Shown here piece after piece: positions 54,638-60,552 of a stretch of DNA of 64,000 nt (position 1 is the stretch's first letter; each line of letters begins with the position of its first letter). The notes under the pieces are model-generated. The model did not search any database. It saw only the letters and a program-made list of their open reading frames with translations, and was not told the DNA's origin. The stretch comes from Methylococcales bacterium. Its GTDB lineage: Bacteria > Pseudomonadota > Gammaproteobacteria > Methylococcales > Methylomonadaceae. The position numbers were made by a program, and so were the translations under genes. The stretch lies in assembly GCA_040079795.1 (NCBI GenBank), contig JBEBJQ010000005.1:28977-92976 (forward strand). Reading direction: 5' to 3'.

Positions 54638-56629
54638 TTATTCAAATCGCCCTGAAAAAGCCAGGATTTTTGCTTGTTGTTTATCCTGTTGCATTAATTG
54701 CCGGCGCAAACCCCGTTGCCTATTCTCTAGGCGTTTTTGCTGCCAAGTGAGTAGGGCAGTTGCAGGTAGGGCAGGAATTTGCATTTGCTGGTTACCCAAA
54801 CCGGCAAAAATTTTAAGTAGCCAAGGTGGAGATGCATGCAACATTCTAGGATCCTGCAATGACATAAAAGCTTCGCAACTGCCTGGGTCGCCTTGTCTGG
54901 CGCAGCGGCCATAAAGTTGCCTATCAATTCTTCGCGCGTCATTGCGGGTGGTGGCGATCACATGCAATCCGCCCAGCTCTTTTACGCCTGCACCCAATTC
55001 TATATCAGTTCCCCTTCCGGCCATATTGGTCGCCACGGTAATACTGCCCAGTTGTCCGGCTTGCGCGATGATTTCAGCTTCAAACTTATCCTGCTGCGCA
55101 TTTAATACCCGATGTTCTAATTGATGGGCGGTCAATTGTGCACTCACCTCTTTTGATTCCGCTACAGAAACGGTACCGATTAAAATGGGTCGGCCCTGTG
55201 CGTGCAGCTCTTTAATGCGGGCGACTAACGCCTGCCATTTTTGCGGCGCTTGCTTATATAGCCGTTCCGGCAGCTGCTTTCGTAGCAGGGGCTTATGTGT
55301 TGGAACTTTAATTACCTGTAGGCCATAGACTTTATTCAGTTCCGACGCGACTTCGGTTACAGTGCCTGAAGTCCCGGCTAAATAGCAATAGCGACTGAAA
55401 AAACGCTGATAGCTGATCCGTGCCAGGGGTTCACGCTGACCGCTAATCAGGCAGCCTTCTTTCGCTTCAATCATTTGTTGCAAGCCTTGTTCCCAGGCCC
55501 GATCAGGCATGACTCTGCCGGTCGCCTGATCAAGCAAGTACACTCTTGAATCGCGTAAAATATAGTGCTGATCGACTTTAAACAAATGTTGTGCGGTTAG
55601 CGCTTGCGATATTAATGCTTCCCTGCGGCGTTTACCTTGCCAGGCGGTGGGTAAGGATTTGGCTAATTGTTCCAGGCGAATTTTACCTTCGGGGGTTAAG
55701 GTAATACTACGTTGGTTAAAGTCGGGCGTGAAATCCCGGTTGAATAACAACGAGGATGCAACATATATAGCATCCACATAAGCGGCTTCATCCTCTTCGT
55801 TAGAAATTGTTTTGGATATGATTAAAGGTGTCGCAGCTTCGTCAATCAGGACGCTATCCGCTTCATCGATAATGGCAAAACACAGCCCACGCAAGAGCAA
55901 ATTGCGCCCACCCTGTTGTTCTGCCTGTATTTGCTGGAACTGCAGGCGCATCTGGCCAGCGTCATCCGCCATGACCAGCCTATCGCGCAGATAATCAAAG
56001 GCGCATTGCTTATTAGTAGTGTGGACAATATCGCAAGCATATTGCATCCGGCGTAAATCTGTCGCCATACCATCTACAACGGTGCCCACGCTTAAGCCCA
56101 TACGGGTATATAAAGGTTTTAACGATAGGGCATCACGCTCGGCCAAATAGTCGTTAGCGGTAATTACATGTACTGGAATGCCCGCTAAAGCAGCGGTTAT
56201 TGCGGGCAAGGTTGCAGCCAGGGTTTTACCTTCGCCGGTTGCCATTTGGGCAACCATGCCGTTTATCATAATCCAGCCGCCAAATAACTGGCAATCATAA
56301 TGCCGTTTGCCCAGGGTGCGTTGCGCGACTTCCCGGATGATGGCAAAAGCTTTAGCAATTATTGGATTCTCTAAGCCTTGCAGCTGCAATTGTTCACGCA
56401 AATTATCAATTTGCTGGGTTAAATCCTGTTCCGATAGGTGCCTAAGCGTATTCTCATGAGCATTGACTTTGGAAACAATATAGTTTTGATGATAACTGCT
56501 TTGTTTCAAGACGTGCTTTAATTGGTTTATTTTGCTGGCTACCCAGCTCTCCAAAGGCGTATAGGCATTATCTGTTTTTTGCGGGTATCTGCCTAAGGCT
56601 ACCCCAGGACGAAAGCGGCGCTTAAACAT
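54638..56629 (-). CDS. SecA-like ATPase (DEAD motor, preprotein-crosslinking-like insert, NBD2) lacking the SecA C-terminal domains
   Basis: SecA signature blocks: MATGEGKTL, ITANDYLAERD, AIIDEADSVLIDEAATPLIIS, YLAGTSGT, TNMAGRGTDI and RRIDRQLYGRCARQGDPG. It is only 663 aa, against ~900 for housekeeping SecA. Its start overlaps the upstream gene's stop by 8 nt (ATGTTTAA). Confidence 0.8.
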   Translation of the reverse strand: MFKRRFRPGVALGRYPQKTDNAYTPLESWVASKINQLKHVLKQSSYHQNYIVSKVNAHENTLRHLSEQDLTQQIDNLREQLQLQGLENPIIAKAFAIIREVAQRTLGKRHYDCQLFGGWIMINGMVAQMATGEGKTLAATLPAITAALAGIPVHVITANDYLAERDALSLKPLYTRMGLSVGTVVDGMATDLRRMQYACDIVHTTNKQCAFDYLRDRLVMADDAGQMRLQFQQIQAEQQGGRNLLLRGLCFAIIDEADSVLIDEAATPLIISKTISNEEDEAAYVDAIYVASSLLFNRDFTPDFNQRSITLTPEGKIRLEQLAKSLPTAWQGKRRREALISQALTAQHLFKVDQHYILRDSRVYLLDQATGRVMPDRAWEQGLQQMIEAKEGCLISGQREPLARISYQRFFSRYCYLAGTSGTVTEVASELNKVYGLQVIKVPTHKPLLRKQLPERLYKQAPQKWQALVARIKELHAQGRPILIGTVSVAESKEVSAQLTAHQLEHRVLNAQQDKFEAEIIAQAGQLGSITVATNMAGRGTDIELGAGVKELGGLHVIATTRNDARRIDRQLYGRCARQGDPGSCEAFMSLQDPRMLHASPPWLLKIFAGLGNQQMQIPALPATALLTWQQKRLENRQRGLRRQLMQQDKQQAKILAFSGRFE

Positions 56630-58785: not shown

Positions 58786-60552
58786 TTAAGGCCACCATGA
58801 CCATACCCACAGTCTAAACCAGTCTACCAATTCATGCGTCCAAATCCACAGAATCGGCTTGCGACCGGCATTAATTTTAGCGACCCCAACCATGCCCGGA
58901 CGTAATAACTCAGTAGGATTTTGCAAACTGGCTTCAACCCGAAAAACATTATCACCAGACTCTACTTTTGCCAAAGTCGTGATTTTTTGGATTGTTAAAG
59001 GTAAACGCTGGTCAGGCAAGCTGGAGAGCGATAGAAGTCCTGTTTCTCCAGATTGTATATAAGCAATGAGCCGTTCACTAACCTTCAGAATAATTCGGTA
59101 ACCGTCCAACGGAGCAATTTTAAAGAGTTTCTGCCCGCGTTCTACCGGTGCACCCAGTAACTGACTGAGATCTCCTTCTATCACCACGCCATCAAATGGC
59201 GCGACAATAGTGGTGCGTTGTAATTGTTCCTGGACTAATTGCAGCTGTGCTTCAAGTTGTTGCAATTTAGCGCGGATGACACTGACATCCACCAGCTCAT
59301 TATTCGCCCTTGCTTCACGGTATTCGCGTAAAGCTTGTTGTTGCTGGCTGACCAATTTGGAATTTTCTAACTGTAAATCGGCATCATCCATGACTGCCAT
59401 ACTTGTGCCTTTGGTTACGGTATCACCGGCACGGACTGAGGCAGTTAAAATAAATCCTTCAATAGGTGCGGCTACTACCCGCTGTATTTTACCTTCCAAT
59501 ACCGCATCTGCATGTACTCTGAAATCCCCCTTAAGCAGGCTAGCTGTGATTAAGCAAGCAATTATGCATAATGCCGTTAATCTTATCCCTATATTACGGA
59601 GGCTAAATAGACTGTTGAATTGTTGGTTAATGCGCGCACCAACCTGCTCCAATAGGGACTTTTCAGTAGCGTGTTTTAGGTACAGATAAGGGCCTAATAG
59701 CGCCAAAGCCTGTTCTAAAAGCCTTACTTGTTCTGCTAAAAAGGGCGTAGACGCATCGCGTTCGAGGGTAAGAACGGCAAAAACGGATTTTTGATAGGCC
59801 ATTGGCAGTGTACAGATGCTACCGGCACTGTATTGTTTAGCCAGCTCTGTATGTGCGCGATTAATATACCGGGGAGGCGTATTGAGCGGAGGATAGGTAA
59901 TAATCATATCCTGGTCAACAGCTTCGTCCATGGCATCAGCGATTGCGCGCATCAAATTGGCGCGATTATCAAATTTTGCGCTGTTAGATAAAGCAACAAT
60001 GTCGACCTGCTGCCGTTTTAACTCACCAATCGTAACCCGCCCACATTGAAATTGTCTGGTCAATTCAGTGATTAGGGCAATCAAGCTTTCCTGGTAAGAT
60101 GTTTCGTCCAGGCAAATGGCAAGCAATTTGACGGTAGTGGCGTAAAATTCTTTGGGTAATAATTCACCTTGTGGCGTTGTGGCAAGTTCAAACCAGTGTT
60201 TACCCTGTTCCAGGCTAAGAAAGAGTTGTTGTTGTTTTTGCGCGGACTGCGCAGTGGTTTTTAATGCGATAACGCCGATTAATTGCTTGTCAAAAAAGAG
60301 CGGGGAAGCTAGGTAATCAAACGCTGGTTCAAGCGTTAAGGTAGCTGTCGTTGGGTTAACGATATTATCACCAGTTTTGGCTGCAATACAGGCAATTGCC
60401 AATAATATGTTGATATCCTGATGATCCTTTGGCCATTGCGCGACAGGTTGCAAGGTTTGGGAGTTTGGCTGAACGATTAAGAATAGCGCACTTCGACACT
60501 CTGTAATAATTTTACATTGAATATCAAGCCAATTCTGAGAAAAACCATTCAA
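58786..60552 (-). CDS. GAF-domain(s) - TM - HlyD-family adaptor protein
   Basis: Cytoplasmic ~310 aa of GAF-like sequence, one TM (LTALCIIACLITASLL), then a membrane-fusion-protein core (VVAAPIEGFILTASVRAGDTVTKGTSMAVMDD...TIVAPFDGVVIEGD). TTG start with AAAAGGA upstream. Confidence 0.75.
   Translation of the reverse strand: MNGFSQNWLDIQCKIITECRSALFLIVQPNSQTLQPVAQWPKDHQDINILLAIACIAAKTGDNIVNPTTATLTLEPAFDYLASPLFFDKQLIGVIALKTTAQSAQKQQQLFLSLEQGKHWFELATTPQGELLPKEFYATTVKLLAICLDETSYQESLIALITELTRQFQCGRVTIGELKRQQVDIVALSNSAKFDNRANLMRAIADAMDEAVDQDMIITYPPLNTPPRYINRAHTELAKQYSAGSICTLPMAYQKSVFAVLTLERDASTPFLAEQVRLLEQALALLGPYLYLKHATEKSLLEQVGARINQQFNSLFSLRNIGIRLTALCIIACLITASLLKGDFRVHADAVLEGKIQRVVAAPIEGFILTASVRAGDTVTKGTSMAVMDDADLQLENSKLVSQQQQALREYREARANNELVDVSVIRAKLQQLEAQLQLVQEQLQRTTIVAPFDGVVIEGDLSQLLGAPVERGQKLFKIAPLDGYRIILKVSERLIAYIQSGETGLLSLSSLPDQRLPLTIQKITTLAKVESGDNVFRVEASLQNPTELLRPGMVGVAKINAGRKPILWIWTHELVDWFRLWVWSWWP

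What the first reader, a model, noticed from the sequence alone, without database searches (positions are those of the whole stretch)
54638..60552. Coupled triad of GAF-HlyD, RRE(PqqD)-S2P protease-HlyD fusion and truncated SecA-like ATPase: a candidate export/processing machine using neither an ABC transporter nor the canonical Sec channel
Seen in sequence: three co-directional genes lie 16 nt apart and then overlap by 8 nt (ATGTTTAA), which suggests a single translationally coupled unit. Gene 3 carries every SecA motor block I can recognise (MATGEGKTL, DEADSVLIDEAATPLIIS, TNMAGRGTDI, RRIDRQLYGRCARQGDPG). It stops at 663 aa, without the C-terminal scaffold/wing/zinc tail of housekeeping SecA. 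Gene 2 joins a PqqD-like leader-peptide-binding (RRE) domain, an S2P/M50 intramembrane protease core (HELGH ... NPLLKYDG) and an HlyD-type periplasmic domain in one polypeptide. Gene 1 is a second HlyD-type adaptor whose cytoplasmic half is GAF-like, a small-ligand sensor fold. Established knowledge: HlyD adaptors normally work with ABC, RND or MFS pumps; SecA pushes unfolded polypeptides; RRE domains bind leader peptides; and S2P enzymes cut within or near membranes. Inference: here a polypeptide-threading ATPase seems to replace the ABC energiser of a type-I-like exporter, with leader recognition and leader cleavage built into the membrane component. I found no ABC transporter, TolC-like gene or convincing precursor-peptide ORF in the flanking intergenic regions (53413-53713 and 60553-60820). 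I know of no experimental description of this gene set.
Basis: partly seen in the sequence, partly recalled or inferred. Interest (0 to 1): 0.88.

Follow-up and report, generated by a model that had tools for sequence, protein, structure and literature searches.

The report
SecA-like export locus beside giant adhesin
This is a real, widely conserved gene cluster (three membrane-fusion-type proteins, one fused to a membrane protease, plus a shortened SecA motor); it was already described by computer analysis in 2015, has never been studied experimentally, and here turns out to sit next to its likely cargo, a giant surface protein with a special N-terminal tag.

Summary
On the minus strand lie GAF-GAF-HlyD (58786-60552), PqqD-like/M50/HlyD (56622-58769) and a 663-aa SecA lacking wing, two-helix finger and tail (54638-56629). 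The gaps are 16 nt and an 8-nt ATGTTTAA overlap.

First, a fourth conserved gene (a third HlyD adaptor, 51913-53412) sits behind a non-conserved pirin insertion. Second, the likely cargo is a 3388-aa adhesin-like protein (41499-51665). It has an N-terminal 'LEELEARQLFSAG' leader, a DUF4347 domain and a conserved C-terminal hydrophobic module.

In 80 genomes the order A-B-C-D holds (69/69, 66/68, 60/66). A giant gene bearing the leader is adjacent in 30/48 loci. Starting from DUF4347 genes instead, 26/29 leader-bearing ones lie beside the cluster.

The locus is not new. Kamneva et al. 2015 (PLoS One, PMC4452313) described the same four-gene module and proposed that the SecA-like protein replaces the ABC energiser. 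They named no cargo, and I found no experimental work.

Best reading: a dedicated envelope-spanning exporter and processor for LEPR-leader giant surface proteins. The mechanism is inferred, not shown.

Novelty: a new member of a kind described only in silico. The cargo link appears to be new. Interest is moderate to high.

The parts
58786..60552 (-). Gene A. Two cytoplasmic GAF domains (aa 17-104 and 155-285), one membrane segment (aa ~318-346), and a periplasmic HlyD/MFP adaptor domain (aa 347-588).
   Evidence: Pfam and NCBIfam hits. Hydropathy. Lies upstream of B in 69/69 loci with room.
56622..58769 (-). Gene B. PqqD-like RRE domain (aa ~20-100; nt 58455-58769). About seven membrane helices with the S2P/M50 core: HELGH at aa 210-214 (nt 58128-58142) and NPLLKYDG at aa 306-313 (nt 57831-57854). 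Periplasmic MFP domain with an alpha-hairpin (aa 446-715; nt 56625-57434).
   Evidence: The AF2 model has three strands then three helices at the N-terminus, and a hairpin at 496-549. Top Foldseek matches for the C-terminal part are MacA, MexA, AcrA and EmrA. NCBIfam daptide_HExxH matches aa 19-414 at 139 bits.
54638..56629 (-). Gene C. SecA-like ATPase with NBD1, PPXD, NBD2 and the first scaffold helix. It lacks the wing, the two-helix finger and the C-terminal tail. It has a conserved N-terminal extension (invariant Y15-P16-Q17).
   Evidence: The Walker A GKT, DEAD, RGTD and RQGDPG blocks are invariant in 20 homologues. Lies downstream of B in 66/68 loci.
56622..56629 (-). 8-nt overlap ATGTTTAA between the stop codon of B and the start codon of C.
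   Evidence: The same 8-nt overlap is inferred in 48/70 related loci.
53714..54571 (-). Pirin gene. A passenger inserted between C and D; not part of the conserved module.
   Evidence: Pfam Pirin and Pirin_C. Absent at this position in all 80 genome loci.
51913..53412 (-). Gene D. A third HlyD/RND-type periplasmic adaptor with an N-terminal signal or anchor. The C-terminal ~200 aa have no family assignment.
   Evidence: Lies downstream of C in 60/66 loci. Corresponds to the HlyD/Biotin_lipoyl gene of Kamneva 2015.
41499..51665 (-). Candidate cargo: a 3388-aa adhesin-like giant protein. Leader at aa 1-30 (nt 51576-51665, 'KPVLEELEARQLFSAGIEG'). DUF4347 at aa 117-280 (nt 50826-51317). Cadherin, Big_9, LamG and PA14 repeats. 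Conserved C-terminal hydrophobic module plus a charged tail (last 108 aa, nt 41502-41825).
   Evidence: No hydrophobic signal-peptide core at the N-terminus. No RTX domain among the Pfam hits.
38426..41461 (-). PAS-GGDEF-EAL protein directly after the giant gene. A possible cyclic-di-GMP regulator of the system.
   Evidence: Pfam. The same gene follows the giant gene in L002, L087, L092 and L130.
60823..60851 (.). Bidirectional terminator-like hairpin with a 13-bp stem, between htpG and gene A. It marks the upstream boundary of the unit.

Best explanation
**What it is.** The locus belongs to the conserved 'secondary SecA_DEAD / type-I-secretion-related' module. Its most likely job is to export, and probably to process, the neighbouring giant surface protein in a dedicated way.

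**Proposed mechanism.** Every step is inferred unless marked otherwise.
1. The giant protein has no hydrophobic Sec signal. It carries a basic N-terminus followed by the LEPR-XLL-type motif (I/L)LEELE(P/A)RQLFS(G/A)G. The motif is shown; its role as a signal is inferred.
2. The cytoplasmic PqqD-like RRE domain of B binds this leader.
3. The truncated SecA motor C is made in step with B through the overlapping stop and start codons. It docks on the B/A membrane complex rather than using a SecY-inserting two-helix finger, which it lacks. It feeds the unfolded polypeptide N-terminus first into a membrane passage formed by the polytopic M50 domain of B, with the anchor of A.
4. The cytoplasm-facing HExxH...NxxPxxxxDG site of B cuts off the leader, as related RiPP leader proteases do.
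5. The periplasmic adaptor domains of A, B and D build a conduit to a TolC-type outer-membrane channel encoded elsewhere. That channel gene is adjacent in a few relatives.
6. The conserved C-terminal hydrophobic module of the cargo may act as a stop-transfer or retention element.
7. The GAF domains of A, the neighbouring GGDEF-EAL protein and, in relatives, HDOD proteins suggest gating by a small ligand or cyclic di-GMP.
For: **Domains and catalytic motifs.**
- Domain architecture and invariant catalytic motifs of A, B and C.
- C is a SecA motor ending after the first scaffold helix.
- The C-terminal part of B has a MacA/MexA/AcrA-like adaptor fold with an alpha-hairpin.
- The N-terminus of B has beta3-alpha3 topology and matches PqqD in 12/16 homologues.
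- Residues 19-414 of B are homologous, end to end, to the daptide RiPP intramembrane leader protease family.

**Synteny and spread.**
- A-B-C-D order: 69/69, 66/68 and 60/66 in 80 genomes spanning Gamma-, Beta-, Alpha- and Deltaproteobacteria and Omnitrophota.
- The 8-nt B/C overlap recurs in 48/70 loci.
- The family is large: at least 520 species genomes and 5271 50%-identity clusters at E<=1e-30.

**Cargo link.**
- A leader-bearing giant ORF is adjacent in 30/48 loci with room: 26 by motif pattern plus 4 that have an adjacent DUF4347 match without the pattern, two of which, read directly, carry the motif variants ELSARQLF and ELNARQLF.
- All 32 motif matches in ORFs of at least 150 aa lay within 80 aa of the start of such an ORF.
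- 9/9 tested leaders from other loci pass NCBIfam NF012209, the LEPR-XLL domain.
- In the reverse test from 80 metagenomic DUF4347 loci, 26 of 29 leader-bearing genes with upstream room have cluster genes beside them. Among those without the motif, 5 of 25 do.
- The cargo consists of extracellular-type modules and lacks both a Sec-type hydrophobic signal and RTX repeats.

**Outer-membrane channel.** TolC-type OEP genes lie next to some relatives.

**Independent proposal.** Kamneva et al. 2015 proposed a secretion role.
Against: - There is no experimental evidence for any step.
- The window's own leader does not reach the NF012209 model.
- In the window protein, PqqD and M50 both score just under the Pfam gathering cut-offs.
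- About a third of loci with room show no adjacent giant gene, for example most Accumulibacter loci.
- Sister clusters lack a SecA-like gene beside B: L107, L119, L120 and L156. In L053 and L072 B is followed directly by the giant gene. The motor may therefore be dispensable or encoded elsewhere.
- Nothing shows that an M50-type domain can form a protein-conducting channel.
- The structure models have only moderate confidence (pLDDT 72 and 68).
- In M. extorquens AM1 only the GAF gene was expressed in exponential culture.
Confidence: 0.55

Rival explanations
1. Two-step route through the housekeeping Sec channel. The SecA-like protein acts as a SecA2-type accessory motor that delivers the giant protein through SecYEG into the periplasm. 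B serves only as the leader peptidase. A, B and D with TolC then carry the protein across the outer membrane.
For: SecA2-only systems that use SecYEG are established in Gram-positives and mycobacteria (background knowledge). Foldseek places the model closest (TM 0.69) to SecY-bound, substrate-engaged SecA (6itc, 5eul, 3dl8). PPXD and both nucleotide-binding domains are intact. Kamneva 2015 found this clade to be sister to actinobacterial SecA2.
Against: The protein lacks the two-helix finger, the wing and the C-terminal tail. The cargo leader has no hydrophobic core for SecY gating or signal peptidase. Scores are below the cut-offs of all SecA and SecA2 NCBIfam models. The tight coupling is with B, not with any SecY-like gene.
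Confidence: 0.2
2. RiPP-type peptide maturation and export. B recognises and cleaves the leader of a small ribosomal peptide encoded elsewhere, and the HlyD proteins export the product. The giant gene would be an unrelated neighbour.
For: The N-terminal 414 aa of B resemble the daptide and YydH/LiaK RiPP intramembrane proteases with an RRE. PqqD-like domains are typical of RiPP pathways.
Against: No conserved small ORF or modification enzyme turned up in 160 loci. The only conserved neighbours are the four genes, the leader-bearing giant gene and signalling genes. The leader-giant association holds in both directions. The daptide model score is 139 against a cut-off of 300.
Confidence: 0.05
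3. A signalling or quality-control device rather than a secretion system. This would be regulated intramembrane proteolysis by the S2P domain of B, sensed through the GAF domains, with the SecA-like ATPase extracting or unfolding a membrane substrate such as the C-terminal anchor of the giant protein.
For: S2P enzymes classically perform regulated intramembrane proteolysis. GAF, HDOD and GGDEF-EAL genes are linked to the locus. The cargo has a conserved C-terminal hydrophobic segment that could be an S2P substrate.
Against: Three periplasmic adaptor domains with TolC-docking-type hairpins point to a conduit. No sigma or anti-sigma pair is conserved in the neighbourhood. This reading could also coexist with export, as a release step.
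Confidence: 0.07
4. An ordinary tripartite efflux pump for small molecules that happens to have unusual accessory proteins.
For: A and D pass the generic RND_mfp subfamily cut-off (102 and 119 bits against 94.9).
Against: No RND, ABC or MFS pump gene is conserved in the locus. A polypeptide-clamp-bearing SecA motor and an RRE-protease have no role in small-molecule efflux.
Confidence: 0.03

Closest known systems
Secondary SecA_DEAD / type-I-secretion-related conserved locus (Kamneva, Poudel and Ward 2015, PLoS One 10:e0129066; e.g. M. extorquens AM1 META1p2402-2399)
   Same: It has the same four proteins in the same order: GAF+HlyD, Peptidase_M50+HlyD, a SecA_DEAD protein without wing/scaffold, and HlyD/Biotin_lipoyl. 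There is no ABC transporter, and an OEP gene is present only sometimes. Its distribution is patchy, as expected for horizontal transfer.
   Different: The architecture does not differ; the window locus is another member. That paper names no cargo, no PqqD/RRE domain and no biological role. The LEPR-leader giant protein link, the cargo's C-terminal module and the SecA-less sister clusters are added here.
Type I secretion systems for giant adhesins (LapA/LapBCE with LapG/LapD; RTX adhesins)
   Same: Both involve a giant repetitive adhesin, HlyD-type adaptors, TolC-type exit, neighbouring cyclic-di-GMP signalling genes, and a dedicated protease in the system.
   Different: This locus has no ABC transporter. 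The sorting signal is N-terminal rather than a C-terminal signal with RTX repeats. The motor is SecA-derived. The protease is an integral-membrane M50 fused to an adaptor, not a periplasmic LapG-type cysteine protease.
Accessory Sec systems (SecA2/SecY2 for serine-rich adhesins; SecA2-only systems)
   Same: Both use a second, shortened SecA paralogue dedicated to a few special, often very large, surface proteins.
   Different: This system is Gram-negative. It has no SecY2 or Asp genes. The truncation is much deeper and removes the two-helix finger. Scores fall below all SecA2 model cut-offs. The partners are adaptor proteins and an M50 protease.
RiPP leader-peptide intramembrane metalloproteases (daptide MpaP-type NF041824; YydH/LiaK NF058609)
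   Same: Both have an RRE-like N-terminal domain followed by an HExxH intramembrane protease core. Homology covers aa 19-414 of B.
   Different: B is fused to a periplasmic adaptor domain. It is linked to a 3388-aa protein rather than a small precursor. Its score is far below the equivalog cut-offs.
SecA_DEAD/PPXD domains embedded in Omnitrophota and actinobacterial giant proteins (West-Roberts et al., bioRxiv 10.1101/2023.11.21.568195)
   Same: Both show SecA motor and preprotein-binding domains without scaffold/wing, associated with giant proteins. The authors proposed a role in exporting the giant protein itself.
   Different: There the SecA-like domains are part of the giant polypeptide. 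Here the motor is a free-standing 663-aa protein within a four-gene module.

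Membership tests
Kamneva-2015 secondary SecA_DEAD / T1SS-related locus | SecA_DEAD protein that has lost the wing/scaffold region | tested here: met
   SecA_DEAD, PP_bind and P-loop_SecA are found but not SecA_SW. The protein aligns to B. subtilis SecA 17-615 only.
Kamneva-2015 secondary SecA_DEAD / T1SS-related locus | Co-encoded Peptidase_M50+HlyD, GAF+HlyD and HlyD/Biotin_lipoyl proteins; no ABC transporter | tested here: met
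   The order GAF, M50, SecA, HlyD is the same as reported for M. extorquens AM1. Synteny holds in 80 loci.
Housekeeping SecA (TIGR00963 / NF009538 equivalogs) | Score above the curated cut-off (800/814 bits) and a full C-domain (scaffold, wing, two-helix finger, tail) | tested here: not met
   Scores are 584.5 and 580.7 bits. The protein ends after the first scaffold helix.
Housekeeping SecA (TIGR00963 / NF009538 equivalogs) | Intact ATPase motor motifs and preprotein cross-linking domain | tested here: met
   GKT, DEAD, RGTD and RQGDPG are invariant in 20 homologues. PPXD E-value is 2.6e-22.
Accessory SecA2 (TIGR03714, TIGR04221, TIGR04397, NF012136) | Score above the model cut-offs; SecY2/Asp partner genes (for the SecA2/SecY2 type) | tested here: not met
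   Scores of 477, 434, 518 and 357 bits are all below the cut-offs. No SecY-like or Asp genes appear among the conserved neighbours.
Type I secretion system | ABC transporter as inner-membrane energiser | tested here: not met
   None was found among the window ORFs scanned. None is conserved in the related loci.
Type I secretion system | HlyD-type membrane fusion protein | tested here: met
   Three are present: A, B and D. Foldseek matches B's C-terminal part to MacA/MexA/AcrA/EmrA. A scores only 51.5 bits on type_I_hlyD against a cut-off of 208.65.
Type I secretion system | TolC-type outer membrane factor | tested here: inconclusive
   None was found among the window ORFs scanned. OEP genes lie next to the cluster in about 6 genome loci and in L156. 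A copy could be encoded elsewhere in the genome.
Type I secretion system | Substrate with a C-terminal secretion signal and RTX repeats | tested here: not met
   There is no RTX or HemolysinCabind hit in the giant protein. The conserved sorting-type motif is N-terminal.
Site-2 protease / Peptidase M50 | HExxH in a membrane helix plus the NxxPxxxxDG third-ligand motif | tested here: met
   H210, E211, H214 and N306...D312 are invariant. 16/16 homologues hit PF02163 at E<=0.01. The window protein itself scores 25.5 against a cut-off of 27.2.
PqqD-like RiPP recognition element | Pfam PF05402 match and a three-strand / three-helix winged-helix fold | tested here: inconclusive
   The score is 23.0 bits against a cut-off of 23.4 for aa 1-105. 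12/16 homologues match. The AF2 topology is E24-31, E34-41, E46-50, H52-59, H67-77, H85-97, but local pLDDT is 47-83. Peptide binding was not tested.
Daptide-type RiPP protease (NF041824) | Equivalog cut-off of 300 bits; small precursor and modifying enzymes nearby | tested here: not met
   The score is 139 bits. No such neighbours were found.
LEPR-XLL domain proteins (NCBIfam NF012209) | N-terminal 24-residue LEPR-XLL motif scoring at least 17 bits | tested here: not met
   The window protein gives no hit even at E<=10. 9/9 leaders of cluster-adjacent giants in other loci score 17.3-32.6 bits. The window leader aligns with them as a divergent subtype.
DUF4347 (PF14252) | Pfam match above the gathering score | tested here: met
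   197.9 bits for aa 117-280. His-Gly and Tyr-Gly-Cys are invariant.

The most novel reading that the evidence does not exclude
The four-gene module is a distinct class of Gram-negative protein secretion system that has never been characterised experimentally. It would work without an ABC transporter or SecYEG. A SecA-derived motor would thread giant LEPR-XLL-leader surface proteins N-terminus first through a channel built by an RRE-S2P-adaptor fusion protein and two further adaptors, and out through TolC. Leader recognition and cleavage would be built into the channel subunit. Retention or release would be controlled by a cyclic nucleotide.
Probability: 0.35. Interest if true: 0.9.

Novelty: new member of a known kind. 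Interest (0 to 1): 0.6.

Why it matters
**An orphan system.** The module occurs in at least 520 species-level genomes and more than 5000 sequence clusters. It has stayed functionally uncharacterised since its in-silico description in 2015.

**An orphan signal.** LEPR-XLL is a curated N-terminal domain found on many giant bacterial proteins. These include the roughly 8000-aa Vibrio protein and the Chlorochromatium symbiosis giants mentioned in the literature. No export route is known for it.

**What linking the two offers.** It gives a testable answer to how such signal-peptide-less giant adhesins leave the cell. It also defines a cargo for genetic and biochemical work in cultivable hosts: Methylomonas, Methylobacterium extorquens AM1, Neptuniibacter and Halioxenophilus.

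**If the mechanism holds.** It would be a new way to energise a TolC-linked conduit, and a new use of the SecA motor, the S2P fold and the RiPP recognition element.

Tried and rejected
- **NCBIfam on the window leader.** Two attempts gave no hit. The model was reached only by leaders from other loci.
- **PDB sequence search with the B profile.** It found only weak MacA matches. The fold search was needed to go further.
- **Database search with the cargo's C-terminal module.** It returned only 23 short contig-end fragments. This could not test whether the module and the leader occur in the same proteins. The evidence rests on 6 loci plus the window.
- **Pfam on D's C-terminal 200 aa and on the cargo termini.** Nothing credible appeared; I suspected a SPOR-like domain but it was not confirmed.
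- **Tat signal.** The window leader contains 'DRRF'. I rejected this reading because RR is not conserved in other leaders and no hydrophobic stretch follows.
- **TolC-docking RxxxLxxxxxxS motif.** I looked by eye at the hairpin tips of A, B and D. I found no clean match and make no claim.
- **First literature searches.** Searches found no description. The 2015 paper surfaced only with the term 'SecA homolog' plus 'HlyD'.
- **Promoter scan of the locus.** It was no better than shuffled sequence: 18 hits against 17.1 expected.

Full report
**1. The observation**

The window carries three co-directional ORFs on the minus strand at the stated coordinates: A 58786-60552 (588 aa), B 56622-58769 (715 aa) and C 54638-56629 (663 aa). 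I read the junctions directly. A ends in TAA, 16 nt follow, and then B starts at ATG. B's last codons and C's start share ATGTTTAA.

- A: GAF_3, GAF, HlyD_D23 and HlyD_3.
- B: PqqD (weak), Peptidase_M50 (just under the gathering score), HlyD_3 and HlyD_D23.
- C: SecA_DEAD (1.9e-93), SecA_PP_bind and P-loop_SecA, with no SecA_SW.

C scores 584 bits on the SecA equivalog, whose cut-off is 800. It is also below the cut-off of every SecA2 model. It aligns to B. subtilis SecA residues 17-615 only. Its AlphaFold model ends in one long helix, residues 620-656. So it keeps the first scaffold helix but lacks the wing domain, the two-helix finger and the C-terminal tail.

The motor motifs are invariant in 20 homologues. 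In B, HELGH and NPLLKYDG are invariant in 16 homologues. Of those 16, 12 match PqqD and all 16 match M50. The window organism is a Methylococcales MAG.

**2. The unit is larger than the triad**

A profile of B retrieved at least 520 species-level genomes, and the 80 best loci were fetched. In these loci:
- A lies upstream of B in 69/69 loci with room.
- C follows B in 66/68.
- A third HlyD-type adaptor follows C in 60/66.

That fourth gene is present in the window at 51913-53412 (gene D). A pirin gene (53714-54571) separates it from C. Pirin occupies this position in no other locus, so it is a local insertion. The 8-nt B/C overlap is inferred in 48 of 70 loci. This argues for coupled synthesis of B and C.

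The carriers are Gamma-, Beta-, Alpha- and Deltaproteobacteria and an Omnitrophota MAG. Cultured strains include Methylomonas sp. TEB, Neptuniibacter, Halioxenophilus and Rhodobacter flavimaris. An exhaustive profile search finds 5271 50%-identity clusters at E<=1e-30. The listed best matches are almost all about 715 aa long.

**3. The likely cargo**

Directly downstream in the window is a 3388-aa ORF (41499-51665). It contains DUF4347, cadherin-like, Big_9, LamG and PA14 domains. These are the make-up of an extracellular adhesin. It has no hydrophobic N-terminal signal and no RTX repeats.

Its N-terminus reads MRKDRRFNSKPVLEELEARQLFSAGIEG. A simple pattern for this motif found 32 matches in ORFs of at least 150 aa across the window and the 81 loci then held. 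All 32 lay within 80 residues of the start of a large ORF next to the cluster.

The aligned leaders share three parts:
- a basic stretch;
- the block (I/L)LEELE(P/A)RQLFS(G/A)G(I/L)EG;
- a variable acidic linker of about 45 residues, after which DUF4347 begins.

Nine of nine leaders tested from other loci pass NCBIfam NF012209, the 'LEPR-XLL domain'. The window's own leader is a divergent subtype that the model does not reach.

Forward count: 48 genome loci have D and at least 1.5 kb beyond it. Of these, 26 have a leader ORF adjacent by pattern. Four more have an adjacent DUF4347 match without the pattern. I read two of those four directly, and they carry the motif variants ELSARQLF and ELNARQLF. 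That gives 30/48.

Reverse count: I started from 80 metagenomic loci found with the DUF4347 N-terminal region. Among leader-bearing genes with upstream room, 26 of 29 have D, C, B or A beside them. Among DUF4347 genes without the motif, 5 of 25 do.

Where the giant's C-terminus is visible (the window plus six loci), it carries a conserved module...TLTAGFVSWILRGGALLASLLSSVPLLKRFDPLP..., followed by a charged tail. A PAS-GGDEF-EAL gene follows the giant gene in the window and in four other loci. Two tandem HDOD genes precede A in 25 loci.

**4. Structure-based checks**

The B model (pLDDT 72) shows the following:
- three strands then three helices at the N-terminus, the RRE/PqqD topology;
- about seven membrane helices, with HELGH near the cytoplasmic end of the second;
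- a beta-hairpin after it;
- a C-terminal lipoyl/alpha-hairpin/beta-barrel adaptor.

An odd number of helices fits a cytoplasmic RRE and a periplasmic adaptor. That topology is inferred.

Foldseek matches the C-terminal part to MacA, MexA, AcrA and EmrA at E about 1e-10. NCBIfam aligns B residues 19-414 end to end with the daptide RiPP intramembrane protease family. The score is 139 bits, below the equivalog cut-off. This supports a leader-binding, leader-cutting module.

The C model (pLDDT 68) matches SecA structures. The best TM-score, 0.69, is to SecY-bound, substrate-engaged forms. It also resembles the N68 truncation of E. coli SecA.

**5. Variants**

Some sister clusters lack the SecA-like gene next to B.
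- L107, L119 and L120 have the order A' (no GAF), B' (about 35% identity), D', then the giant.
- L156 has OEP, HlyD, HlyD, M50-HlyD (26% identity), then a DUF4347 giant with a different leader, 'ALEPRIMFDGAA'.
- In L053 and L072 the giant gene follows B directly.

The M50-adaptor protein and the extra adaptors therefore look like the core. The SecA-like motor is characteristic of one large clade, or is encoded elsewhere in the others.

**6. What is already known**

Early searches found nothing. A later search found Kamneva, Poudel and Ward 2015 (PMC4452313).

[quoted passage not shown] These sit in a conserved locus with Peptidase_M50/HlyD, GAF/HlyD and HlyD/Biotin_lipoyl proteins, and sometimes an OEP gene. 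The order is the same in M. extorquens AM1 (META1p2402-2399).

The authors proposed that the SecA_DEAD protein supplies the ATPase in place of an ABC transporter, and that the M50 protein may form the pore. They stated that the biological role was completely unknown. The paper does not mention DUF4347, adhesins, PqqD or any cargo. I found no follow-up.

Two preprints give related leads.
- SecA_DEAD/PPXD domains without scaffold/wing are embedded in Omnitrophota giant proteins and were proposed to aid their own export.
- In Chlorobium chlorochromatii a horizontally acquired secA (Cag_1676) is co-expressed with two giant proteins that carry LEPRxLL N-termini. I could not verify that Cag_1676 is the truncated type.

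**7. Mechanism and confidence**

I am confident (about 0.85) that A, B, C and D form one functional unit, and that it is linked to LEPR-leader giant proteins. That it exports them is likely (about 0.55-0.7).

The individual steps are inference from domain homology. Each could fail:
- the RRE binds the leader;
- the M50 site cuts it;
- the SecA-like motor drives N-first threading through a B/A membrane passage;
- the three adaptors connect to TolC;
- the C-terminal module retains the protein;
- a cyclic nucleotide gates the system.

The main rival is a SecA2-like, SecYEG-dependent first step (0.2). The missing two-helix finger and the non-hydrophobic leader argue against it. Nothing excludes it.

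**8. Verdict**

The window locus is a new member of a kind that has been described but never studied experimentally. The cargo link and the RRE assignment appear to be new, and they make the system directly testable.

Noticed in passing
window 53714-54571 (-): A pirin gene sits between the SecA-like gene and the fourth (HlyD) gene. No other of the 80 genome loci has a gene there, so it looks like a recent insertion into the operon.
   Followed up: partly
window 50826-51317 (-), aa 117-280 of the giant protein: The DUF4347 domain has invariant His-Gly (H171-G172) and Tyr-Gly-Cys (Y212-C214) in 13 aligned proteins. The only solved DUF4347 protein is Tce1/PA0256 (PDB 9QPE chain G), which its authors call a putative cysteine protease. 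The domain right after the leader may therefore be a self-processing or effector protease.
   Followed up: partly
window 41502-41825 (-); also L002, L004, L087, L092, L130, L139: The giants share a conserved C-terminal module, ...AGFVSWILRGGALLASLLSSVPLLKRFDPLP..., plus a charged tail. It has no Pfam or NCBIfam model. It may be a membrane anchor, a retention element or a second sorting signal.
   Followed up: partly
window 38426-41461 (-); L002, L087, L092, L130; 25 loci upstream of gene A: Signalling genes travel with the system. A PAS-GGDEF-EAL protein follows the giant gene, and two tandem HDOD proteins precede gene A in 25 genome loci. This hints at cyclic-di-GMP control, as in Lap-type adhesin systems.
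   Followed up: partly
L156:2812-10500; L107, L119, L120: Sister systems lack a SecA-like gene beside B. L156 has OEP(TolC)-HlyD-HlyD-M50/HlyD followed by a DUF4347 giant whose leader is a different LEPR subtype (ALEPRIMFDGAA). L119 has A' without GAF, then B', D' and the giant.
   Followed up: partly
L053:12657-22103; L072:12867-22145: In an Omnitrophota MAG and an Accumulibacter MAG, the LEPR-leader giant gene follows B directly, with no SecA-like gene between them. I did not establish whether the motor lies beyond the giant gene.
   Followed up: no
window 56629-56500 (-), aa 1-45 of the SecA-like protein: The SecA-like family has a conserved N-terminal extension (R7-P8-G9, invariant Y15-P16-Q17) that lies upstream of the part aligning to the solved SecA structures. 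There is also a conserved ~19-residue insertion in NBD1 (aa ~220-250). Both are candidate docking elements for B or A.
   Followed up: no
window 60823-60851: A perfect 13-bp-stem hairpin flanked by A-runs and T-runs lies between htpG and gene A. It looks like a bidirectional terminator and marks the start of the unit's own transcription.
   Followed up: no
L002 (JAURXZ010000039.1): This contig is labelled 'Bacteroidia bacterium' MAG. Its locus matches the query at the same identity (63% in B) and with the same gene layout as the Methylobacter locus L028. It is probably a binning error, so taxon labels of single MAG contigs should be treated with care.
   Followed up: no
bioRxiv 10.64898/2026.03.19.712371 (Chlorobium chlorochromatii Cag_1676, Cag_663, Cag_665): A horizontally acquired secA is reported as co-expressed with two giant LEPRxLL-leader symbiosis proteins. 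The authors assign their export to a sap/T1SS-like route. If Cag_1676 is the truncated SecA type, the system described here would be the better candidate.
   Followed up: no
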